Positions 2,901 to 22,856 of a stretch of 29,443 nucleotides of DNA are shown here, one piece after another; positions within the stretch are counted from its first letter, which is position 1, and each line of letters starts with the position of its first letter. Made by a program: the position numbers and the translations under genes. The DNA lies in the IMG/VR virus record IMGVR_UViG_2609459795_000003, one strand, 5' to 3'. This DNA is from a virus (taxonomy: Duplodnaviria; Heunggongvirae; Uroviricota; Caudoviricetes). The notes under the pieces are model-generated. The model was not told the origin of the DNA and made no database searches. It saw only the letters and a program-made list of their open reading frames with translations.

Positions 2901-3979
2901 CAGAACGGGTCCTCCTGTACTCTGGCTTTTTTCTTTTTCCGCGCGCCGGGGGCTTCGGGTTCAGGCAGATAAGCATCAGGTGGGCCGACACGGATTTCCG
3001 TCAGGGTGCCATTCTGGTCCTGAGTAAACGTGACTTCCGAGACAAGCAGTTCGGTATTGTCGAAACCACAGACCGGATCGAAGACAATCACCCGCTGGTT
3101 GGGCTGCCACAGCGTACCGTTACCCTGTCGCCAGCCCTGCACCACATAGGTGGTTTCATCCGTCCGCGCCGCCCGTTGTCGGGCTTCAAAGTCAGCACGC
3201 GCAATACAGCCTGCCCCCGTAGCCTGCCCTGTCTGCCTGATATACATCGGACGGTAACGGGCAATAAATGCATCCTCTGTGCGGGCCCGCAGCGCGGTGG
3301 TGGTGGCCTCACCGAAATCATCGTCGTTTCCGGCACGCTGCCCCGCCACCTGGTAAACTGAAAACCGCTCCCGGATACTCTTCTCCGTATCACAGGAAAG
3401 GATGTTTTCCCCAAGTACCAGCGCGGTATGTGCCCGCGTTGAGCCAATACCACCAATCACCAGCCTGCCGTGCGGGTCGTCATAAGCCAGCGCCTGCTGC
3501 TGACCGAGTATTTTGTTGATCACCTCGATCACCGTTTCACCGTGATCAGGCTGGACATCCGGAATAACACCCGACGGCGCATCGCTGTTCACCACCTCAA
3601 TGCCGAAAGGCGCAGCAAGCGCCTGCGCAATCTGTACCAGCGATCGTCCGTTAAACTGTGTCGGTTCGGCTGCACAGTCAATCAGGTCAGCAGTCAGACT
3701 ACGTCCGGCAATACCGGTGCTGACCGAACGGGCATCGTAACGAACGGGGGTCGCCTCCACCCAGCCGGTGATCACCAGCTCATCACCAATCAGCACTTCC
3801 ACTTTTGAACCATTTTTAATGCGCGGCTGAAGCGTGGTGATACCCTCATCTCCCGGCCACTGGCGGGTGATCCCCACGCTAAAACCCCGCCCCAGCCGTT
3901 CAATACCGGCACCGATGCGCACCGATGTCCAGCCATTCCACTCTCGGCCATTTACCCGTAGCGTGACGTTATCGTTCAT
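2900..3979 (-). CDS. Mu gp44 (P)-like baseplate hub / tail protein
   Basis: 359-aa ORF following the DNA-circulation-protein gene with a 4-nt overlap (3976-3979); Mu-like synteny. Confidence 0.6.
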   Translation of the reverse strand: MNDNVTLRVNGREWNGWTSVRIGAGIERLGRGFSVGITRQWPGDEGITTLQPRIKNGSKVEVLIGDELVITGWVEATPVRYDARSVSTGIAGRSLTADLIDCAAEPTQFNGRSLVQIAQALAAPFGIEVVNSDAPSGVIPDVQPDHGETVIEVINKILGQQQALAYDDPHGRLVIGGIGSTRAHTALVLGENILSCDTEKSIRERFSVYQVAGQRAGNDDDFGEATTTALRARTEDAFIARYRPMYIRQTGQATGAGCIARADFEARQRAARTDETTYVVQGWRQGNGTLWQPNQRVIVFDPVCGFDNTELLVSEVTFTQDQNGTLTEIRVGPPDAYLPEPEAPGARKKKKARVQEDPF

Positions 3980-5304
3980 TGCACTGGCACCTTCAGAGGG
4001 ATCACCGGCACAAAGCCGGGATGCGTAATGGCATTACGCCGGATAATGTCCGCGTCACGCGCCGCGTTATCAAACCAGGTCGCCGCCAGCACCAGCGCGG
4101 GTAAAACCTCATCCGGCGTGCGCTGAATGATCCGTGCAGACTGTTCAAGGCGCGTGTTGATATCCGCATTCAGATCTGCTTTCACCCGGCGCAGCGCCAG
4201 AAACAGCGCATCACTGGTTGTACGGGACAACTCCTTATCAGTTGCCGTATTCAGTGTGTCGCGAATGTCGGTCAGTTCTTCCCACGTTGGCAGGTCAACC
4301 GTGTTTTTTACCGCCGGTGCATTGTTCAGCACCGGATGCGTGACGGCAGGCCAGCCGGAGCTCTGCGCGGGTGTTGTTGACTGCCCCACTGCGGCATTCT
4401 GCATCACCGCAGAAGTTGTTGGCGCAGGCAATCGGGTAACGGCATACGCCGCTTCGCTGATTGCAGTCGTACGAAGGGTGCTGGCAACCATGTTACGCTG
4501 CTGCGTCGCTGTGGCGGTGGTTTTACTGTCCGTTTTCCAGACGCCGCGCGGTTGCAAATCGCTGCCGAGGCTGACACCAGAAAGCGTTTTGATCATGGTG
4601 ACCAGGTCGCTGGCGTTACCATAAAGGCGTTTCCCGGTACGCCACATTTTCTGCACCTGCTCAACGAAATTTTTGCCTGACGATGGCGGCGGCAGAAGTA
4701 CCGAGATATCCCCCTGCAACAGCCTGGCGGCATCCGATACGGCAGAATCCACCACTTTCATCGCATCAGAAACATACCCCAGCATTATGCTGGCATTACC
4801 GATAACGTCGTTCTGCACGAAATCCGCCACACCATCGATACTGAAACCGCTGAAGCTGTCACTGATGCAGTCATCCAGTGCAGAACAGGATGACATCAGC
4901 GTCTGCGCCGTCGCCGCACCTGATGTGGGGTAAGAGAGTTCTCCTGCTTCGACAAACTTCAGGTCAAAGCGGACAATACGCCCTTCACTTTTCGATGTGC
5001 TGACCCGAACTTCCCCGTCAACACAGACTTTCAGCTCACCATATGTCGGGTGGACAAGCGTGCCGGGACCTGGTTTATTCAGCGCTTCAATCAGGCGATC
5101 GCGCTGGTCAAAGCAGTCATCTCCCACCACATAAGCCGTGATGGACGGGCGAAAAGTGATTTTCCCCAGGTCTTCGGTATAGGGTTTGTCGCGGTTCGGG
5201 TATTCATGTGTTTCCACACGGCGACCGGTTCCCGCACTTTCTTCTTCAACCTTAAACGGCACGCCGCGAAATGACGCGTCCTGAAGCCTGTCTTTCCACG
5301 TCAT
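3976..5304 (-). CDS. DNA circulation protein N-like tail protein (Mu gp43-like)
   Basis: 442-aa ORF downstream of tape measure; N-terminal region MTWKDRLQDASFRGVPFKVEE...THEYPNRDKPYTEDLG matches the conserved N-terminal domain of this family as I recall it; SD GGAG 5 nt before the ATG. Confidence 0.65.
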   Translation of the reverse strand: MTWKDRLQDASFRGVPFKVEEESAGTGRRVETHEYPNRDKPYTEDLGKITFRPSITAYVVGDDCFDQRDRLIEALNKPGPGTLVHPTYGELKVCVDGEVRVSTSKSEGRIVRFDLKFVEAGELSYPTSGAATAQTLMSSCSALDDCISDSFSGFSIDGVADFVQNDVIGNASIMLGYVSDAMKVVDSAVSDAARLLQGDISVLLPPPSSGKNFVEQVQKMWRTGKRLYGNASDLVTMIKTLSGVSLGSDLQPRGVWKTDSKTTATATQQRNMVASTLRTTAISEAAYAVTRLPAPTTSAVMQNAAVGQSTTPAQSSGWPAVTHPVLNNAPAVKNTVDLPTWEELTDIRDTLNTATDKELSRTTSDALFLALRRVKADLNADINTRLEQSARIIQRTPDEVLPALVLAATWFDNAARDADIIRRNAITHPGFVPVIPLKVPVQ

Positions 5305-5309
5305 ATATA

Positions 5310-5345
5310 CTCCGAAAATTAAAAAGCCACCTATTAGAAGGTGGC
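5310..5345 (-). terminator. Rho-independent terminator after the tail-operon moron
   Basis: Minus strand reads GCCACC-TTCTAATA-GGTGGC followed by TTTTTAATTTT; lies 21 nt after the moron stop and abuts the SD of gene N. Confidence 0.6.
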
Positions 5346-5365
5346 CTTGTAATGAATTTTATTAA

Positions 5366-5896
5366 TTAGCGAGTCAGAAACAACGAATCTTTATACTTTT
5401 GCTGTTGTTCATTTAAATACTTAGCTGTTTCATCGCTGGCAAATGGAAATATTACCGTATTTTTAGGCATGGTAATTTCTTTTTTGTCCAGCGTCAGAGT
5501 AAACATAGGAACATACTGAGCAGAGTAACGCACCGCAGAAACGAGCTCTAGTTTAGACTCTTCAATAACACTTAAATTATCCAGGCTAACTTTCTCTTCA
5601 TCTTTTTTCTTTGACGCATTTAAAGTTTTTATTACTTTATTTAATTTCTCCTGAAAATCCTCCTTAAAGTTTTCAGGATTGCCGTCGACAACAAGAATCT
5701 GTTCACCCTGATTATCTGGAAAAATAATCTTTGCACTTATCAATTTATTTTCTTTATAAACATCACCAAGTTTTATGGCTCCTCCAGATAACTGAATAAT
5801 ATGTTCATCTTTAAAGGAGATGTTGCCAGAGATTATGAGAGATGAAAAAATAGCCGCTGCTCCAAGAATTACACTTGCTGTGATATAGCCTTTCAT
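5366..5896 (-). CDS. AT-rich moron: exported or membrane-anchored protein of unknown function
   Basis: 176-aa ORF, visibly AT-rich versus flanking tail genes; N-terminal hydrophobic signal/anchor (MKGYITASVILGAAAIFSSLIISG), lysine-rich body; flanked by its own promoter-like element and terminator; inserted between tape measure and N. Confidence 0.6.
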   Translation of the reverse strand: MKGYITASVILGAAAIFSSLIISGNISFKDEHIIQLSGGAIKLGDVYKENKLISAKIIFPDNQGEQILVVDGNPENFKEDFQEKLNKVIKTLNASKKKDEEKVSLDNLSVIEESKLELVSAVRYSAQYVPMFTLTLDKKEITMPKNTVIFPFASDETAKYLNEQQQKYKDSLFLTR

Positions 5897-5931
5897 TTTT
5901 CGCCTATTAACATTTTTCTAAATGTGCATTA

Positions 5932-5959
5932 ATTCTATCACTCTATTTATGACTTACAA
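5932..5959 (-). promoter_or_regulatory. Candidate sigma70 promoter for the tail-operon moron
   Basis: Minus strand: -35 TTGTAA (5954-5959), 16-nt spacer, extended -10 TGaTAGAAT (-10 hexamer 5932-5937), roughly 35 nt upstream of the moron ATG. Confidence 0.45.
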
Positions 5960-5987
5960 CCAGCAATACCTGTGAGGGGAATCCTGG

Positions 5988-7820
5988 CTACCAAAATCGG
6001 GTATAGCCAACATCGTGATTTATATCAATGCCACTGGAGCGTGTTTCCGTAACCCGCATACCTGGTGGCATATTTATAAATGATACCTTGATCTCACCAT
6101 CAACTTTTGGCGCGGTAGCTTTATTAATCATGAAGGGATTCGGACCTGTGGCACCGGAGGCGTTGTTTGCCTGAGCCGGATCCACCTCCGGATAAGGAGT
6201 GTATCCCCGTGGCGGTATTCCCGTCCCATAAGCATCATAAGCACCCGCGCCCCACTGCGCCGAGTTAATGGCATCGACCGTGTCACCGGAACTGTCGGTA
6301 AACCATTCAATAATCGGCTTCAGCTTATCCCACATATCCTGAAACCACTTAACAACCGGTCCCCAGTTATTGATCACCATCCCCAGCGGCGACCAGGCAA
6401 AAACCTTCTTCAGAAGTTCCCAGCCAGCCTCAAAATAAGGACTAATGGTTTCCCAGAGCTTCTTAAAATAAGGTCCGACAACATCCCAGTTAGTGATAAT
6501 TAATCCCGCAGCTAGGGCAATCGCCGTCGCAATCATGCCAATCGGCGTCATCGACATGATCCTGCTGACGATACTGATGGCACTGCCCACGCCCATCAAT
6601 CCCAGTTTCAGAATCGCAAGACCGGCAGCAAGCCCGACGACGCCGCGAATAACCCGGGGATTTTCATCCGCAAACTTCGTGAATTTTTCCCCTAACTCCC
6701 CCAGCCATTGCGTGATATTTTTGACGTCACCAGAAAATGCGCCGCCAATAGCCGCAAGGCCGTTAGTTGCGGTCCCCGTCATTGCCTCCCACAGGTTGGA
6801 CAGCGTACCAAGCTGGGCCTGAACACGTTTATTCAGGCTGGCCTGTTTATTCATCTTCTGCTGGATCTGATCGTAATCATCCTTTCCTTTATCGATCAGA
6901 GCATTGACCACCTGAAGGGTTTCGGCATCATCACCAAATATTGCCTTAAGTACACCGGTTCGCTTAACGTCGGTCAGTTTTCGCAGCTTTGCCAGTTGCC
7001 TGAACATGTTATCAAGACCGCCAAAACTCCCTTTGCCGTCAGTAAAATCGAGCTGTACCCCGAGTTTCTGGCGGGCCATAACTTTATTAACGTCCCTGAT
7101 TTTCTTAACGCTTAATCCGGACTGGATAACTTTTCGCAGGGCATTACCTGCCGACTCCCCGTTCATCCCCATCTGATCCATCATGACGCTGATGGGGGCA
7201 AGGCTCTGTGCAGCCTGAAGACCGTCCTTGTTCACCATCTTCAGAACAGAACTGGTTTTAGTGAAGAAGGACAACATGTTGGTATCGTCAACGCCCAGAT
7301 AAAACGCCTTCTGGATAGTGTCGAACAGCCCCATCATGTCTTCTGACGCCGTTCCGGTAGCATCCTGCATCTTTGCAGCAAACTCAGCAGCCGCTTCCGG
7401 TGTTTTTTTCAGTTGTACCGCAAGATAAGCTGTCGCTTTACCCACACCGCCAAGAATATTTTCTGCCGGGATCCCCTGACGCACCAGCATCTGCATCATG
7501 TTCTGGAAATCAGCCGTTGTACCGGGTAGCTGGTTACCCAGGCCAATAGCCAGTTTATTGATGTCCTGAAAGCTCTTTCCGACCTCGCCGTTCGCATCCA
7601 TCATGGCGACTTTCAGCCCGGTGGCGGCGTTTTCCTGATCGGCATAAGATTTCAGGGAAAGCGTCAGACCCGCTGCCAGTCCGCCACCAAGCGCCAGCCC
7701 ACCCTGTGATGCTTCTTCCGCCTGGCGTTTAAATCCCCGGATTTTCTTTTGCATTTTCGACAGCGCGGGAGAAAGTCTGTCGACACCGGTGATCAACGCC
7801 TTAAGCTCAAATTCAGCCAT
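5988..7820 (-). CDS. Tail tape measure protein
   Basis: 610-aa ORF, Ala/Gly-rich with predicted coiled-coil and hydrophobic segments, directly downstream of the frameshifted chaperone pair and upstream of N/P/V baseplate genes. Confidence 0.8.
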   Translation of the reverse strand: MAEFELKALITGVDRLSPALSKMQKKIRGFKRQAEEASQGGLALGGGLAAGLTLSLKSYADQENAATGLKVAMMDANGEVGKSFQDINKLAIGLGNQLPGTTADFQNMMQMLVRQGIPAENILGGVGKATAYLAVQLKKTPEAAAEFAAKMQDATGTASEDMMGLFDTIQKAFYLGVDDTNMLSFFTKTSSVLKMVNKDGLQAAQSLAPISVMMDQMGMNGESAGNALRKVIQSGLSVKKIRDVNKVMARQKLGVQLDFTDGKGSFGGLDNMFRQLAKLRKLTDVKRTGVLKAIFGDDAETLQVVNALIDKGKDDYDQIQQKMNKQASLNKRVQAQLGTLSNLWEAMTGTATNGLAAIGGAFSGDVKNITQWLGELGEKFTKFADENPRVIRGVVGLAAGLAILKLGLMGVGSAISIVSRIMSMTPIGMIATAIALAAGLIITNWDVVGPYFKKLWETISPYFEAGWELLKKVFAWSPLGMVINNWGPVVKWFQDMWDKLKPIIEWFTDSSGDTVDAINSAQWGAGAYDAYGTGIPPRGYTPYPEVDPAQANNASGATGPNPFMINKATAPKVDGEIKVSFINMPPGMRVTETRSSGIDINHDVGYTRFW

Positions 7821-17899: not shown

Positions 17900-18250
17900 T
17901 CACCTGAACCGCTCACGCGCGGTCTTCACTGCGTGACACGACCAGCACAGACTCTCAAGGTTGCTGTCTTCATCAGTGCCGCCGTGAGCCTTCGCCTTGA
18001 GGTGGTCCACGCAGGACGCTTGCTTCACAACTCCCTGCCGAAGATGGTTCTGACATAACCCTTTGTCGCGCTTTAGTATCCGCTCCCGGATGACTTCCCA
18101 CTTTGTTCCATATCCGCGCTGCTGCCGTGATTGACCTGGCTTGTAGGATTTCCAGCCCTCACCTTTATGATTTTCGCAGTAGCCTGACGGATCTGTAGTG
18201 GTAGAACGGCAGCCGCGAACACGGCAGGCTTTTGGGATTCGTGGCGGCAT
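17900..18250 (-). CDS. HNH endonuclease (terminase-associated)
   Basis: 116-aa ORF with Cys/His pairs (CRVRGC ... CENH ... CVDH ... CWSCH) adjacent to terminase, as in HK97-like cos phages. Confidence 0.75.
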   Translation of the reverse strand: MPPRIPKACRVRGCRSTTTDPSGYCENHKGEGWKSYKPGQSRQQRGYGTKWEVIRERILKRDKGLCQNHLRQGVVKQASCVDHLKAKAHGGTDEDSNLESLCWSCHAVKTARERFR

Positions 18251-18321
18251 ATGGAAAACTCCGGATAGAAATTATGATAGAAACCATGTTATTTAATAGC
18301 GTTTCAATCCGTTAAGTAACA

Positions 18322-18738
18322 ATGGTTATGCTCGTAAAGGACGCCCTGATGACAAATAACTACATGAATGATTTCCTCAAATACTCACAGCCATATGTTC
18401 CAAAGGACTACAATCTTGCAAATGAATTTCATAGACGCCTTATATGCTGGATAAATGATTTTCACCGTGAACTTGAAGAAGAGTATGAGGTAGGAGGACA
18501 ACTAGCTAGCTTTGGTAAAAACATTGAATTTCATTTCACAGACATAAGCTACTGGAATCCATCATTAATTTCTTTCATTGGTACTCTGGAGGATGGCAGT
18601 CCTGTAGAACTTGTTCAGCATGTATCTCAAATAAATGTCCTGCTAATCCGAAAAAAACGCTTATGCTTAGAGACCCCTAAAAGACCGATTGGGTTTGCTG
18701 ATTGGGGTGAATACGACTCCTTTAAAGGAGATAATTGA
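18322..18738 (+). CDS. AT-rich plus-strand moron: hypothetical soluble protein
   Basis: 138-aa ORF, opposite orientation to all flanking phage genes; visibly AT-rich. Likely start is the ATG at 18349 with AAGGA 7 nt upstream. No hydrophobic segments; family not recognised. Confidence 0.55.
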   Translation: MVMLVKDALMTNNYMNDFLKYSQPYVPKDYNLANEFHRRLICWINDFHRELEEEYEVGGQLASFGKNIEFHFTDISYWNPSLISFIGTLEDGSPVELVQHVSQINVLLIRKKRLCLETPKRPIGFADWGEYDSFKGDN

Positions 18739-18745
18739 TAACTTT

Positions 18746-18778
18746 ATTGCGGGCGATAATTGCCCGCAATCTCGTTTG
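18746..18778 (+). terminator. Terminator-like hairpin after the plus-strand moron
   Basis: ATTGCGGGC-GATAATT-GCCCGCAAT (9-bp stem) 8 nt after the stop, followed by CTCGTTTG (weak U-run). Confidence 0.4.
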
Positions 18779-18780
18779 CC

Positions 18781-18999
18781 TCATAACTGGCTAATACAGT
18801 TGCGCTGTACTGCTTTGTTATGTGCCAGAATATCCCGCTTCGTAAGCTTATCCAGCACTTCAATGTCCTGACCTGTGAGATAGATGATTCTTACCCAGTC
18901 ACAGGCCGTGTCCGTTACTTCAGGTTTTGCGGGTAAAGTTTTCGCGCAACTCACGGTCAACATCGTCATCAGGTAGATGATTAACAGTCTGCTGTACAT
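18781..18999 (-). CDS. Putative o-spanin (Rz1-like outer-membrane lipoprotein)
   Basis: 72-aa ORF with signal peptide and lipobox-like LTVSC; two later Cys; overlaps the 3' end of the upstream membrane protein gene in another frame, downstream of the endolysin. Confidence 0.45.
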   Translation of the reverse strand: MYSRLLIIYLMTMLTVSCAKTLPAKPEVTDTACDWVRIIYLTGQDIEVLDKLTKRDILAHNKAVQRNCISQL

Positions 19000-19252
19000 C
19001 CCAGGCTCCTTTTGTTGTCTCTACCCTACGTTCTGCAACGGCTTCAGTAGCAGCTGCACGTTCTTCAGTGCGTTGCTGGTCCGCTTTTGTTTCTGCGATA
19101 CTTGTACCGCGTGATTTACCCAGACCAAAAGCACCTGCAATTGCAGCCAGCACAGCAACAACCAGGCCGATAATCATTTCAAGTCCCATAGTGACCTCAT
19201 ACCAGTGCGGCTTTTGCTTTGGCGTAACGTTCACGGCGGTCTTTAATGCCAT
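18920..19252 (-). CDS. Putative i-spanin (Rz-like)
   Basis: 110-aa ORF (likely starting at an internal Met) with one N-terminal TM segment (MIIGLVVAVLAAIAGAFGL) and a charged, helical C-terminal part; directly after the endolysin. Confidence 0.4.
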   Translation of the reverse strand: MALKTAVNVTPKQKPHWYEVTMGLEMIIGLVVAVLAAIAGAFGLGKSRGTSIAETKADQQRTEERAAATEAVAERRVETTKGAWDVQQTVNHLPDDDVDRELRENFTRKT

Positions 19253-20092: not shown

Positions 20093-20531
20093 CTGAACCT
20101 CCCCGGCGCGTTATGAGCGCCACCAGCGAGCCGATATCCTGATTATTCAGGAACGTCAGGATTTTAACGGCTAAAGCAGAGACGATTACGGCACCAATAG
20201 CATCCAGAGGTTTATCACTGTATCCGGTCAAGTTCGCCAGCTTGGAGCCAACCAACCCAGAGCAAAGGATCCCGGCAATATATGACACGATAAAATATGC
20301 TAGTCGGCGCGATGCACTCAGATCTGCTGCTGTTGCTATGTAGAATACAGCCCCTGCAAATGCGCCAAATACAACGCCGTAATCAGTTCCGGTCAGCAGT
20401 CCATAAATACTAGCGCCCGTTAGGGCTCCACCAGCTAACCCTGTGCCGGAAATCGGATCGGACATTAGCCACCTCTTATTGCAGTGAGTCCTCTCAGAAA
20501 TAGAAATGAGAGGAATAAAAAAGGCCACCAT
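20079..20531 (-). CDS. Putative holin
   Basis: Gly/Ala-rich multi-TM protein upstream of the endolysin; probable start is the internal ATG at about 20465 (MSDPISGTG...) preceded by AAGAGGTGG. Confidence 0.55.
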   Translation of the reverse strand: MVAFFIPLISISERTHCNKRWLMSDPISGTGLAGGALTGASIYGLLTGTDYGVVFGAFAGAVFYIATAADLSASRRLAYFIVSYIAGILCSGLVGSKLANLTGYSDKPLDAIGAVIVSALAVKILTFLNNQDIGSLVALITRRGGSGGAK

Positions 20532-20540
20532 TTGGCAGCC
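20517..20540 (-). promoter_or_regulatory. Degenerate palindrome GGCTGCCAAATGGTGGCC plus T-run after the 268-aa cargo gene
   Basis: Shares the half-site GGCTGCCAA with the perfect palindrome at 21546-21563; followed on the minus strand by TTTTTT. Could be a weak terminator and/or a second operator. Confidence 0.35.
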
Positions 20541-20573
20541 ATAGAATTGATGTAATTATAACTAATTCATTAA

Positions 20574-21380
20574 CTATTTCTTAATGATGCTATTTAACAT
20601 TTCTAATGCAAAAAGCAACATGGAGCTAATAAAATACAATATAACCGCACTGGCAATCGCTCCAATTATAGCCTGGACACTCCAGTGAAAGTAATTTTTA
20701 CCATTAATAACAAACTTAACACTAGGAAACAAAAAGTCGATAAGCTTAATTATTAATGGAATAGCAAAGCTCCATAAGTTCGAAAACAAAATAAAGATAC
20801 AAATAAATGATAAAGCAAATGCACCATCGATTGATAGTTTTGGCGCCAGTTTTGAGGCTGTCCATAAGCTAAGCAAAAAGCCAACTGTCACACCTGAAAT
20901 CTGGATACTTAACATAGTCCAAGCTGTTCTAAAAAATCTAAATTTATTTTTGCACTTGTTAATTAAATCCTGAATCGTAATCCATAACGAGTCAACCCAC
21001 TCATTATCTTCCGATGCTACAATCATTGTGCTGCTATTTGAATTCCTCTCATCAATTCGTAGCTCCATCCAAGATCCATTCATCCTGTTAGACTGTCGAC
21101 TTTGATAAGTTTCAATAGTAAAAATTATTTGATCAATCCTAGTGGCCTGTCTAAAGTATTTCACAAGCTCACCGATAGAATCAACTTTATACCCCTTACC
21201 ATCGAACAAAATAAAAAAAACACATTGAGCACAAACTTCCCTACTTTCCTTTTGAGCTTGCTCATTCATTTTAACGCAGCGTTCGACAATTGCCGTGCTT
21301 AAGCTAATCAAGCTATCTTCATTTATAGAAACACCTGAAATATTCTTGCTTCTGTAAAAATATGACACTTTCGATTCCAC
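20574..21380 (-). CDS. AT-rich cargo protein: soluble N-terminal domain plus C-terminal 3-4 TM helices, unknown function
   Basis: 268-aa ORF, visibly AT-rich; hydrophobic segments in the last ~110 aa. Track start is GTG at 21380 with no convincing RBS, so the true start is uncertain. Confidence 0.55.
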   Translation of the reverse strand: MESKVSYFYRSKNISGVSINEDSLISLSTAIVERCVKMNEQAQKESREVCAQCVFFILFDGKGYKVDSIGELVKYFRQATRIDQIIFTIETYQSRQSNRMNGSWMELRIDERNSNSSTMIVASEDNEWVDSLWITIQDLINKCKNKFRFFRTAWTMLSIQISGVTVGFLLSLWTASKLAPKLSIDGAFALSFICIFILFSNLWSFAIPLIIKLIDFLFPSVKFVINGKNYFHWSVQAIIGAIASAVILYFISSMLLFALEMLNSIIKK

Positions 21381-21511
21381 TCCGCACCAGTCTCGATTTA
21401 GCGCAGGTTAACATAACCACTTCATTGGTAGAAGAAAAGAACTCTTCTTGTCAGAAAGCTACTGTGATATCCCTAAACCTGCAGATGATACAGAACAAAA
21501 TTTAAGCATCA

Positions 21512-21563
21512 ATTGTAGGCGATTTTAAATTCACTTTACAGTTTAGGCTGCCAATTGGCAGCC
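21512..21563 (-). promoter_or_regulatory. Perfect 18-bp palindrome GGCTGCCAATTGGCAGCC adjacent to a candidate promoter for the 268-aa gene
   Basis: Palindrome at 21546-21563; on the minus strand it is followed after 5 nt by TGTAAA (21535-21540), a 17-nt spacer and TACAAT (21512-21517). Confidence 0.4.
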
Positions 21564-21577
21564 GATTGAAGCAGAAA

Positions 21578-21847
21578 TCAATGAGTGCTCATCGATGAAT
21601 TTTTTTCAGCGCCAATCTCACTCAAAAAAGCAAAACCTTTTGACGTTATCTCATTAGCAATCAATCCACCTTCGGCAGATTTGCTTCGTATAACATCGAT
21701 AAAACCTATATCAGCAAGATCTGAAATAGCAAAGTTAACCTCTTTTGCTGAGAGATGAGGTAATGATGCAGCCTGAATTCTAGAATCCTTTGGCTGCAAT
21801 TCATTCACTCGACGTAGTATTTCAAGATGGATAGAGGTCAGTTTCAT
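21578..21847 (-). CDS. AT-rich cargo protein: small putative winged-helix/HTH protein
   Basis: 89-aa ORF with strong RBS (AGGAG, 6-nt spacing) and an upstream extended -10; alternating hydrophobic/charged pattern consistent with a small DNA-binding fold (inference). Confidence 0.5.
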   Translation of the reverse strand: MKLTSIHLEILRRVNELQPKDSRIQAASLPHLSAKEVNFAISDLADIGFIDVIRSKSAEGGLIANEITSKGFAFLSEIGAEKNSSMSTH

Positions 21848-21884
21848 AATGTTCTCCTGTTTTTAATGTTGTTTTACAGAAAAC

Positions 21885-21893
21885 ATTATAACA
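21885..21893 (-). promoter_or_regulatory. Extended -10 promoter element TGTTATAAT upstream of the 89-aa cargo gene
   Basis: Minus strand TGtTATAAT about 35 nt upstream of the 89-aa ATG; no good -35, as is common for extended -10 promoters. Confidence 0.45.
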
Positions 21894-21920
21894 CATTGAT
21901 TTTGATGTAGATTGAATAGA

Positions 21921-21953
21921 AAAAAACCATAAAAAAACCTCGCAATAGCGAGG
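21921..21953 (-). terminator. tR'-like Rho-independent terminator downstream of Q
   Basis: Minus strand: CCTCGC-TATT-GCGAGG hairpin followed by TTTTTTTATGGTTTTTTT, about 110 nt after the Q stop. Confidence 0.65.
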
Positions 21954-22061
21954 TCGTAAAAATTGTTCAACGATAGATACACAAGCCCCATCGTTGAGAA
22001 AATCTTATCCATATTTTTTGAGAAATACAAGTATTATGTCGTTATCTTCGGCGAAAATCGC

Positions 22062-22856
22062 TTATCTCGTCACCCTTCTCAATTGTGCTTCAGCGTAAGC
22101 TTCCTCCTGCCAGCACTTTGTAACCAGTTTATCAATGACATCTGCATATCCTTTGTACCACTGATAATCCGTCAGGTCTGGTACCAGCTTCTGGACATGA
22201 AGCCGCGCCAGTGTGGTTGGTAAACGGCTAAACCGGTTTCCACTGCAACGCCCACAAATCTTATAAACAGGCGTGCCATGAAGCCGGGTTCTTTTTTCAT
22301 CCAGGACAATACCTTTACCCTTACACCCTCTGCACGCGGTGCTGACTTCTCCCTTACCATGGCAATGCTGACATAGTTCCTTCACCCACTCTTCCTTGAT
22401 AACAGATTCCCCGCTTCTGGAGTGTTTCACCACTTCGCGCAATACATTATGAAATCCAGTACCAGCACAATGCTCACAGCGAGCCTTACTTGCCGCAGAC
22501 CTGGAATAATCAGCAAAGGCAAAATTCACAAGGTAAGGGATGATCTGTAACCGGGTTTCTTCACTCAATTTGTTCAATGTCGGGTTATCCAGTGCCATCG
22601 CGTAATTGAGCAGACCTTCAATCGCAAACTGAGGATCCTGAACACCAACTTTTGCCAGGAATAAGGCAAACCCAAGCGGTGCTTTCGACTGCACCATCCC
22701 CTGCGCAGCCATCACATCCGTAATCGTTAAACCACCTGAGCCTGTCGCCGGTGCGTCATCGCTCAATTTTGGAGATTTTGGGGAGTAATATTTTGGTAAG
22801 GCTTCAAGGTTCATGCTCGTTCTCCACTTACGCCAGCACGCCAATTGCCAGCGCAC
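22062..22856 (-). CDS. Late-gene antitermination protein Q
   Basis: 264-aa ORF (probable start at MNLEALPKYY, about 22814) with Cys/His zinc-binding motifs (CEHCAGTG ... CQHCHGKG ... CRGCKGKG ... CGRC), immediately upstream of a terminator and the lysis genes. Confidence 0.7.
   Translation of the reverse strand: MRWQLACWRKWRTSMNLEALPKYYSPKSPKLSDDAPATGSGGLTITDVMAAQGMVQSKAPLGFALFLAKVGVQDPQFAIEGLLNYAMALDNPTLNKLSEETRLQIIPYLVNFAFADYSRSAASKARCEHCAGTGFHNVLREVVKHSRSGESVIKEEWVKELCQHCHGKGEVSTACRGCKGKGIVLDEKRTRLHGTPVYKICGRCSGNRFSRLPTTLARLHVQKLVPDLTDYQWYKGYADVIDKLVTKCWQEEAYAEAQLRRVTR

What the first reader, a model, noticed from the sequence alone, without database searches (positions are those of the whole stretch)
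5305..5960. Classic moron (promoter - gene - terminator) inserted inside the tail operon between tape measure and DNA circulation protein
The 176-aa ORF is AT-rich, has an N-terminal signal/anchor (MKGYITASVILGAAAIFSSLIISG) and a lysine-rich exported body. It is preceded by a minus-strand promoter-like element (TTGTAA, 16 nt, TGaTAGAAT) and followed by a strong intrinsic terminator (GCCACC-TTCTAATA-GGTGGC-TTTTTAATTTT). That terminator sits only ~5 nt before the SD of essential tail gene N, so it must be leaky or overridden during late transcription. An envelope-located protein expressed from a prophage tail region is a typical superinfection-exclusion or surface-modification candidate.
Basis: partly seen in the sequence, partly recalled or inferred. 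Interest (0 to 1): 0.6.

Follow-up and report, generated by a model that had tools for sequence, protein, structure and literature searches.

The report
Membrane-protein moron in prophage tail operon
A small AT-rich add-on gene with its own stop signal and a likely start signal sits in a swap-slot between two tail genes of an E. coli prophage; it encodes a membrane-anchored periplasmic protein of unknown fold that most plausibly shields the host cell from other phages, which is a familiar kind of element but an uncharacterised family.

Summary
ORF 5366-5896(-) is real (176 aa; dN/dS about 0.08 between orthologues) and has 31-35% GC against 52-59% in the flanks. It has a promoter-like site and a stable intrinsic-terminator hairpin whose U-tract abuts the RBS of the Mu-N-like gene.

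The moron reading is supported mainly by comparison. Among IMG/VR prophages with 97-100% identical N genes, the gap between tape-measure (TMP) stop and N start has at least five states: empty (63 nt, as in the isolated phages SfII and SfV), this gene, and three unrelated cargos, one on the opposite strand. In Lelliottia the gene and its terminator survive alone beside icd, with no tail genes.

Two refinements:
- A terminator hairpin sits at this junction even when the slot is empty, so the late operon always crosses one. A Q antiterminator is present in the window.
- The family (77 clusters, PHROG 5485, no Pfam) recurs next to TMP genes in two different contractile-tail modules.

Function is inferred, not shown: a superinfection-exclusion protein acting at DNA injection, analogous to HK97 gp15. 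This is a new member of a known kind.

The parts
5932..5959 (-). Promoter-like site: -35 TTGTAA (5959-5954), 16-nt spacer, extended -10 TGaTAGAAT (5940-5932)
   Evidence: The consensus scan found it as 9 of 12 matches with TG. This is not significant on its own (4 found against 5.5 expected in 6 kb). Orthologues L010 and L011 have 9-of-12 sites at the equivalent position, L092 has TGtTATAAT, L006 is weak and L093 has none.
5897..5987 (-). AT-rich 91-nt leader between the TMP stop and the ORF start; weak RBS AGG at 5905-5903
   Evidence: Read directly from the sequence. There is no similarity to the empty-site phages in this stretch.
5366..5896 (-). 176-aa ORF (PHROG 5485; WP_000679479.1 'hypothetical protein'), a bitopic membrane protein
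   Evidence: Orthologues of 30-58% identity exist. dN/dS is 0.08 for L006 against L011. AlphaFold gives pLDDT 91.6.
5828..5890 (-). Codons for the N-terminal transmembrane helix (residues 3-23)
   Evidence: AlphaFold models helix 3-23. The hydropathy and charge asymmetry are conserved in 63 family members; there is no lipobox.
5315..5348 (-). Intrinsic-terminator hairpin (stem 5348-5323) plus U-tract (5325-5315)
   Evidence: Scan; fold -17.3 kcal/mol, z -4.8. Every orthologous locus has an equivalent hairpin, and so does the empty slot of SfII and SfV.
5302..5313 (-). RBS (GGAG 5313-5310) and ATG (5304-5302) of the Mu-N-like gene, abutting the U-tract
   Evidence: Read directly from the sequence. 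Similarity to SfI and SfII resumes at about 5331.
5988..7820 (-). Tail tape measure gene; its 3' end is the left border of the cargo slot
   Evidence: PF10145. The last 3-4 codons differ with each cargo state.
3976..5304 (-). DNA circulation (Mu N-like) gene; its RBS is the right border of the slot
   Evidence: PF07157. The allele is present in 1091 of 5426 complete E. coli genomes.
22062..22856 (-). Q-type antiterminator gene upstream of the lysis and structural genes
   Evidence: PF03589, E 5e-53; annotated as 'antitermination protein' in CP030939.

Best explanation
The segment is an autonomous accessory-gene cassette (a moron). It occupies a polymorphic cargo slot bounded by the stop codon of the tape-measure gene and the RBS of the Mu-N-like gene, in an SfV-like prophage (lambdoid regulation, Mu-type contractile tail) integrated at icd in E. 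coli.

Shown here:
- The cassette is dispensable for closely related isolated phages (SfII, SfV).
- It is exchangeable with unrelated cargos at the same slot.
- It is compositionally foreign.
- It is under strong purifying selection.
- It is followed by a stable intrinsic-terminator hairpin.
- It can persist on its own after the prophage has decayed.
- The predicted product has an N-terminal transmembrane helix (N-in by the charge rule) and a 150-residue alpha/beta domain that would then face the periplasm.

Inferred:
- In the lysogen the gene is transcribed from its own extended -10 promoter, and the transcript stops at the hairpin, so the tail genes stay silent.
- After induction, Q-modified RNA polymerase coming from the late promoter reads through the hairpin, as it must also do at the empty-slot hairpin of relatives.

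Most likely function (inferred, about 35%): a superinfection-exclusion protein that acts at the inner membrane or periplasm on the injection machinery of incoming phages (tape measure or tail tip) and blocks genome entry, as reported for the HK97 gp15 moron.

Confidence by layer: moron or cargo-slot nature about 0.9; envelope location about 0.8; exclusion function about 0.35.
For: Presence or absence:
- SfII, SfV and 689R6 have a 63-nt junction in place of the 683-nt one, with TMP and N 97% identical to the window's.
- Of 74 IMG/VR loci whose N gene starts with the same 12 bases at the expected position, 30 are empty, 22 carry this gene, 18 carry cargo B, 3 carry cargo D (opposite strand) and 1 carries cargo C. 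Cargo C is bPH_1 and cargo D is tRNA_anti-like.
- In complete E. coli genomes the N allele is in 1091 genomes, this gene in 179, cargo B in 85, cargo C in 28 and cargo D in 79.

Foreign composition: GC 0.31-0.35 against 0.52-0.59.

Autonomy:
- Lelliottia L010 keeps about 130 nt of the TMP 3' end, the gene and the terminator right after icd, with no other phage gene.
- A distant member (L095) lies on the opposite strand between the tail chaperone and TMP genes of an E217-like tail module.

Real gene: dN/dS 0.08.

Terminator: and 57-60 for the orthologues. Q antiterminator.

Product:
- AlphaFold pLDDT 91.6, transmembrane helix 3-23.
- Positive-inside charge pattern in 47 of 63 members.
- The only fold match in BFVD is a protein annotated as a Pseudomonas phage lipoprotein, E 1e-6.

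Precedent:
- The HK97 gp15 moron has the same gene-terminator-next-tail-gene layout.
- It is reported to be expressed from the prophage and to block genome injection in a way that depends on the phage tail (PMC3594210). Escape maps to the tail tube and TMP genes (PMC10883804).
Against: - No expression data exist. The promoter match is no better than chance as a motif and is not conserved across the family. L093 has only 34 nt between TMP and the gene, so some members may be transcribed only with the late operon.
- The gene sits at the same TMP|N position in relatives down to 30-41% identity. This could instead mean a long-standing functional tie to the tail module.
- The known TMP-targeting exclusion proteins act on non-contractile tails. 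No such case for a Mu-type contractile tail was encountered in the papers read here.
- Chromosomal members in non-phage contexts allow a general envelope function.
Confidence: 0.55

Rival explanations
1. The cassette is a lysogenic-conversion gene whose periplasmic product benefits the host in a way unrelated to phages, for example protection against colicins, T6SS effectors or envelope stress, or a role in colonisation.
For: - Family members occur in plain chromosomal contexts: L094 next to gluconate dehydrogenase genes, L098, and L097 next to a Rap1a T6SS-immunity gene.
- The Lelliottia copy is retained without any prophage.
- The review PMC3594210 lists morons with such roles, including Lom and Cor, which also protects against colicin M.
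Against: - In both phage tail-module types sampled the gene sits immediately beside the TMP gene. A generic host-fitness gene would not be expected to do this.
- There is no similarity to any immunity or stress family.
Confidence: 0.27
2. The gene is not expressed in lysogens. It is transcribed only as part of the Q-antiterminated late operon and serves the lytic cycle, for example by stopping superinfection or wasteful injection into already infected or lysing cells, or by some membrane step of infection. On this reading the promoter match is fortuitous.
For: - The gene has the same orientation as the late operon.
- The promoter motif is not significant and is not conserved; L093 has a 34-nt upstream gap.
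- Synteny is deep.
Against: - The Lelliottia copy has no late operon yet remains intact, and the icd terminator lies upstream of it.
- The L095 member is antisense to the tail operon.
- Every copy carries a terminator, which is unnecessary for an ordinary operon gene.
Confidence: 0.13
3. The gene encodes a tail structural or assembly component of the Mu-type tail.
For: Its position between TMP and N is kept in distant relatives.
Against: - It is absent from SfII and SfV, which were isolated as phages and have about 97% identical TMP and N, and from most N-bearing E. coli prophages.
- Unrelated genes replace it at the same slot, including one on the other strand.
- It has a transmembrane helix.
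- No match to tail proteins was found in Pfam, PHROGs or PDB.
- It survives without tail genes.
Confidence: 0.03

Closest known systems
HK97 gene 15 moron (gp15, YebO-like superinfection-exclusion protein; Juhala et al. 2000; Cumby et al. 2012, as summarised in PMC3594210)
   Same: - It is an AT-rich extra gene inside a Q-dependent tail operon, directly adjacent to the TMP gene.
- It has a putative promoter of its own and an intrinsic terminator that ends about 13 nt before the next essential tail gene.
- Its product is an inner-membrane protein.
   Different: - There is no sequence similarity (BLASTP E = 17).
- gp15 is 62 aa, whereas this protein is 176 aa with a folded 150-residue extracytoplasmic domain.
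- gp15 lies between the tail chaperone and TMP genes of a non-contractile tail. This gene lies between TMP and the Mu-N-like gene of a contractile tail.
- Function here is untested.
TP-J34 Ltp, Tuc2009 Sie2009 and P22 SieA (membrane-tethered proteins that block DNA injection; PMC10883804)
   Same: - They are prophage-encoded proteins tethered to the cytoplasmic membrane.
- For Ltp, and for HK97 gp15, escape from exclusion maps to the tape-measure region.
   Different: - Ltp is a lipoprotein of a Gram-positive host with helix-turn-helix repeat domains.
- This protein has no lipobox and no fold match in PDB.
- Those genes lie near the lysogeny module, not in the tail operon.
PHROG 5485 / WP_000679479.1 (uncharacterised)
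   Same: Full-length match, E 4e-108; identical protein in RefSeq E. coli.
   Different: Nothing is known about the family, and no paper mentions the accession.
Other moron slots of SfV-like and lambdoid phages (for example the Q-to-lysis region described for SfIV, PMC3851460)
   Same: A low-GC insert flanked by transcription signals in the same phage group. The window has such an island at 20400-22200.
   Different: The TMP|N slot and its alternative cargos were not mentioned in the papers found.

Membership tests
Moron (as defined for HK97/HK022, Juhala et al. 2000; PMC3594210) | Extra DNA that is present in one phage but absent from close relatives at the same junction | tested here: met
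   The junction is 683 nt here and 63 nt in SfII, SfV and 689R6, with 97% identical flanking genes. Among 74 IMG/VR loci, 30 were empty and 22 occupied by this gene.
Moron (as defined for HK97/HK022, Juhala et al. 2000; PMC3594210) | Base composition that differs from the surrounding genes | tested here: met
   GC 0.31-0.35 against 0.52-0.59.
Moron (as defined for HK97/HK022, Juhala et al. 2000; PMC3594210) | Own terminator | tested here: met
   The hairpin plus U-tract folds at -17.3 kcal/mol, z -4.8, and is present in all orthologous loci. Caveat: the empty slot has a hairpin too.
Moron (as defined for HK97/HK022, Juhala et al. 2000; PMC3594210) | Own promoter | tested here: inconclusive
   There is a 9-of-12 match with an extended -10 in the right place. 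Such motifs are as frequent as chance in this region, and conservation among orthologues is patchy.
Moron (as defined for HK97/HK022, Juhala et al. 2000; PMC3594210) | Expression from the repressed prophage | not testable with these tools
   This needs TSS mapping, RNA-seq or reporter fusions in a lysogen.
HK97 gp15 / YebO family | Sequence homology to gp15 or YebO | tested here: not met
   BLASTP E = 17; no Pfam hit.
Superinfection-exclusion proteins acting at DNA injection | Blocks genome entry of superinfecting phage without blocking adsorption | not testable with these tools
   This needs plating, adsorption and injection assays.
Superinfection-exclusion proteins acting at DNA injection | Location in the cytoplasmic membrane or periplasm | tested here: met
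   Prediction only: transmembrane helix 3-23, and a hydropathy and charge pattern conserved in the family.
Mu-type tail structural or assembly proteins | Homology to a known tail component, or presence in all phages with this tail | tested here: not met
   No tail family was found in Pfam, PHROGs or PDB. The gene is absent from SfII and SfV and from most N-bearing prophages.
Known anti-phage defence systems (PADLOC-DB) | Match to a defence-system protein model | tested here: not met
   No hit at E <= 1.
Bacterial lipoproteins (as Llp, Cor and Ltp are, from my own knowledge; Ltp also PMC10883804) | Lipobox with an invariant Cys after the signal sequence | tested here: not met
   The protein has no Cys. 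Only 1 of 63 family members has a lipobox-like motif. The single BFVD fold relative is annotated as a lipoprotein.

The most novel reading that the evidence does not exclude
PHROG 5485 is the first superinfection-exclusion family directed against Mu-type contractile tails. It would be a membrane-anchored periplasmic protein with a new fold that recognises the tape measure or tail tip of incoming phages. Because of that specificity it would travel genetically linked to TMP genes, in a dedicated cassette slot that also hosts at least three other uncharacterised envelope or PH-domain cargos.
Probability: 0.25. Interest if true: 0.6.

Novelty: new member of a known kind. Interest (0 to 1): 0.42.

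Why it matters
Morons are the main route by which prophages change host phenotype, yet few have an assigned function. This work gives three things.

- A cleanly bounded cassette slot (TMP stop to N RBS) with at least five natural alleles, in a prophage group present in about a fifth of complete E. coli genomes. This makes isogenic comparisons easy.
- A confident structure model for an uncharacterised family that repeatedly sits next to tape-measure genes. This yields a directly testable exclusion hypothesis for contractile-tail phages.
- Evidence that the late operon of these phages always traverses an intrinsic terminator at this junction. This is a natural test bed for Q-dependent read-through.

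None of this overturns current ideas; it extends the HK97 gp15 paradigm.

Tried and rejected
Searches that found nothing or could not run:
- tblastn of the protein against 50,697 GenBank phage records: no match.
- NCBIfam, PADLOC, Pfam and PDB sequence searches: nothing significant.
- The afdb50 fold library was not available.
- The search for related loci with the 63-sequence alignment failed because there was no conserved block.
- The genome-contig scan returned only one species, Edwardsiella anguillarum.
- The accession WP_000679479 appears in no paper, and no paper describes morons at TMP|N.
- The primary HK97 gp15 paper (PMC3430355) is not held. The review PMC11436027 added nothing.

Ideas considered and dropped:
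- Tai tail-assembly-interference systems: those lie upstream of the packaging module, and a text search of the paper found no mention of 'transmembrane'.
- Whether the moron's divergence tracks that of the TMP: TMP identity is mosaic (36% in L006 against 77% in L011, for the same 53-55% moron identity), so no co-evolution claim is made.

Full report
**1. The observation**

The window is an SfV-like prophage with lambdoid regulation and a Mu-type contractile tail. It is integrated at icd in E. coli; an identical stretch is found in strain AMSHJX01, where the ORF is annotated as hypothetical protein WP_000679479.1.

On the minus strand the gene order is:
- tape measure (TMP), 5988..7820, PF10145;
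- a 176-aa ORF, 5366..5896;
- a Mu-N-like 'DNA circulation' gene, 3976..5304, PF07157;
- a Mu-P-like gene.

- GC falls to 0.31-0.35 over the ORF, from 0.52-0.59 on both sides.
- The promoter-like site TTGTAA-16-TGaTAGAAT at 5959..5932 and the hairpin 5348..5323 with its U-tract are both returned by the scan.
- The hairpin is stable: -17.3 kcal/mol, z -4.8, 0 of 200 shuffles as stable.
- The promoter match is not significant as a motif (4 found against 5.5 expected in 6 kb). Only its position counts.
- The U-tract ends at 5315 and N's GGAG is at 5313-5310.

**2. It is an insert, and the site is a cargo slot**

The isolated phages SfII, SfV and 689R6 have a 63-nt TMP-to-N junction instead of 683 nt. 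Their TMP and N proteins are 97% identical to the window's. The gene is therefore not needed to build this tail.

I fetched 80 IMG/VR loci whose N protein is 97-100% identical and measured the gap. Of the 74 loci whose N gene starts with the same 12 bases at the expected position:
- 30 are empty;
- 22 carry this gene;
- 18 carry an unrelated gene of about 165 aa with a signal peptide (cargo B, 684 nt, GC 0.32);
- 1 carries a bPH_1 PH-domain gene (cargo C, 496 nt);
- 3 carry a tRNA_anti-like OB-fold membrane protein on the opposite strand (cargo D, 589 nt).

In 5426 complete E. coli genomes the N allele occurs in 1091. This gene occurs in 179 (all but one of the 181 matching records at 99% identity or more), cargo B in 85, cargo C in 28 and cargo D in 79. 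Similarity between the states breaks within the last 3-4 TMP codons on the left, and within or just after the terminator stem on the right.

**3. The terminator belongs to the junction as much as to the moron**

The empty slot of SfII and SfV carries its own hairpin, TCCCAC-TCCG-GTGGGA followed by T6, in the same place just before N's RBS. It folds at -18.7 kcal/mol and is annotated as a putative terminator in the SfII record.

That hairpin resembles the terminator of cargo C, and a hybrid variant exists in L073. The empty state may therefore be a deletion derivative.

Either way, late transcription in this phage group always has to cross an intrinsic terminator here. The window encodes a Q antiterminator (PF03589, 22062..22856) upstream of the lysis and structural genes. 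Q-mediated read-through of terminators is the accepted mechanism in this phage group (PMC3851460). HK97 shows the same arrangement: the gp15 moron terminator ends 13 nt before the TMP start.

**4. The gene is real, old and autonomous**

Homologues of 52-58% identity occur in Leclercia and Lelliottia. A homologue of 41% identity occurs in Edwardsiella anguillarum. A profile search finds 77 clusters at 50% identity, all about 170-200 aa.

- In Leclercia-type prophages, in Edwardsiella and in a metagenomic Mu-type module (30% identity), the gene lies at the same TMP|N position with its own hairpin.
- dN/dS between two Leclercia-type copies is 0.08.
- The gene diverges faster than sheath, tube, N or P.
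- In Lelliottia amnigena the gene stands alone 370 nt downstream of icd. It is preceded by about 130 nt of TMP 3' remnant and followed by its terminator, with no other phage gene.
- A distant member lies on the opposite strand between the tail chaperone and TMP genes of an E217-like tail module.
- Other members are in ordinary chromosomal neighbourhoods.

These facts fit an independently expressed accessory gene and not a tail component. They also show a recurrent association with TMP genes.

**5. The product**

No Pfam, NCBIfam, PADLOC or PDB-sequence match was found. The only family match is PHROG 5485, of unknown function.

With the 63-sequence alignment, AlphaFold gives pLDDT 91.6 and pTM 0.76. 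The model has a transmembrane helix at residues 3-23 and then a four-strand / helix / two-strand / helix domain.

The hydrophobic segment is conserved across the family. Net charge is positive before it and negative after it in 47 of 63 members, which predicts an N-in, C-out topology. There is no lipobox. Cleavage by signal peptidase after ISG cannot be excluded.

**6. Mechanism**

Shown:
- the cassette nature of the segment;
- a terminator-like hairpin;
- the presence of Q;
- a predicted envelope location.

Inferred:
- expression from the cassette's own promoter in lysogens;
- insulation of the tail genes by the terminator;
- Q-dependent read-through after induction.

The function I commit to, at about 35%, is superinfection exclusion at the DNA-injection step. 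The basis is analogy:
- HK97 gp15 is a tail-operon moron next to the TMP gene. It is an inner-membrane protein, and its block depends on the phage tail, with escape mapping to the tube and TMP genes (PMC3594210; PMC10883804).
- TP-J34 Ltp targets the tape measure.
- This family is repeatedly adjacent to TMP genes.

The main rivals are a phage-unrelated envelope benefit to the host (about 27%), a late-only role in the lytic cycle (about 13%) and a tail structural or assembly role (about 3%).

**7. Comparison and novelty**

The element works like the HK97 gp15 moron but is not a member of that family (E = 17). It meets the comparative, compositional and terminator criteria of a moron. The promoter criterion is inconclusive and expression is untested.

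I found no paper on this protein or on this slot. It is a new member of a known kind, of moderate interest. The value lies in the well-defined multi-allelic slot and in an uncharacterised, confidently modelled family with a testable role.

Noticed in passing
L019:3317-4000, L017:3505-4000, L080:3412-4000 (same slot as window 5305-5987): Three alternative cargos occupy the TMP|N slot. Cargo B is a signal-peptide protein of about 165 aa with no Pfam match. Cargo C is a bPH_1 PH-domain protein. Cargo D is a tRNA_anti-like OB-fold membrane protein on the opposite strand. They occur in 85, 28 and 79 complete E. coli genomes respectively.
   Followed up: partly
L001:2981-3019 (SfII); L073 and L017 just upstream of position 4001: The empty slot keeps a terminator hairpin that resembles the cargo-C terminator, and L073 is a hybrid of the two. 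The empty state may therefore be a deletion derivative rather than the ancestral state.
   Followed up: partly
L010:5860-6570 (Lelliottia amnigena): A TMP 3' remnant, the gene and its terminator stand alone directly downstream of icd with no other phage genes. This looks like a domesticated remnant of a decayed prophage.
   Followed up: partly
L095:4001-4594: A distant family member (matching PHROG 5485 at E 3e-10) lies antisense between the tail assembly chaperone and TMP genes of an E217-like myovirus tail module.
   Followed up: partly
window 20400-22200: A second low-GC island (36-37% GC) lies between the Q antiterminator and the holin. It holds two ORFs: 20574..21380 (268 aa, no Pfam) and 21578..21847 (89 aa, weak DUF2513). 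This is the classic Q-to-lysis moron site.
   Followed up: no
window 18000-19000: A third low-GC island (42-44% GC) holds a DUF6173 ORF (18322..18738) on the plus strand, antisense to the late operon, between the lysis genes and the HNH/terminase genes.
   Followed up: no
L006:8013-9808, L011:8012-9819: Leclercia-type relatives carry two extra genes (503-507 aa and 94 aa, no Pfam) inserted between the N-like and P-like genes. These are absent from the window.
   Followed up: no
L070:3317-4000: Cargo B is frameshifted by a T8-to-T7 change in a homopolymer within its signal-peptide codons. This could be a sequencing error, decay or slippage.
   Followed up: no
L097:89-418: A distant family member (P0059) lies beside a Rap1a (T6SS immunity) gene on a short contig. 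This hints that some members have a non-phage envelope role.
   Followed up: no
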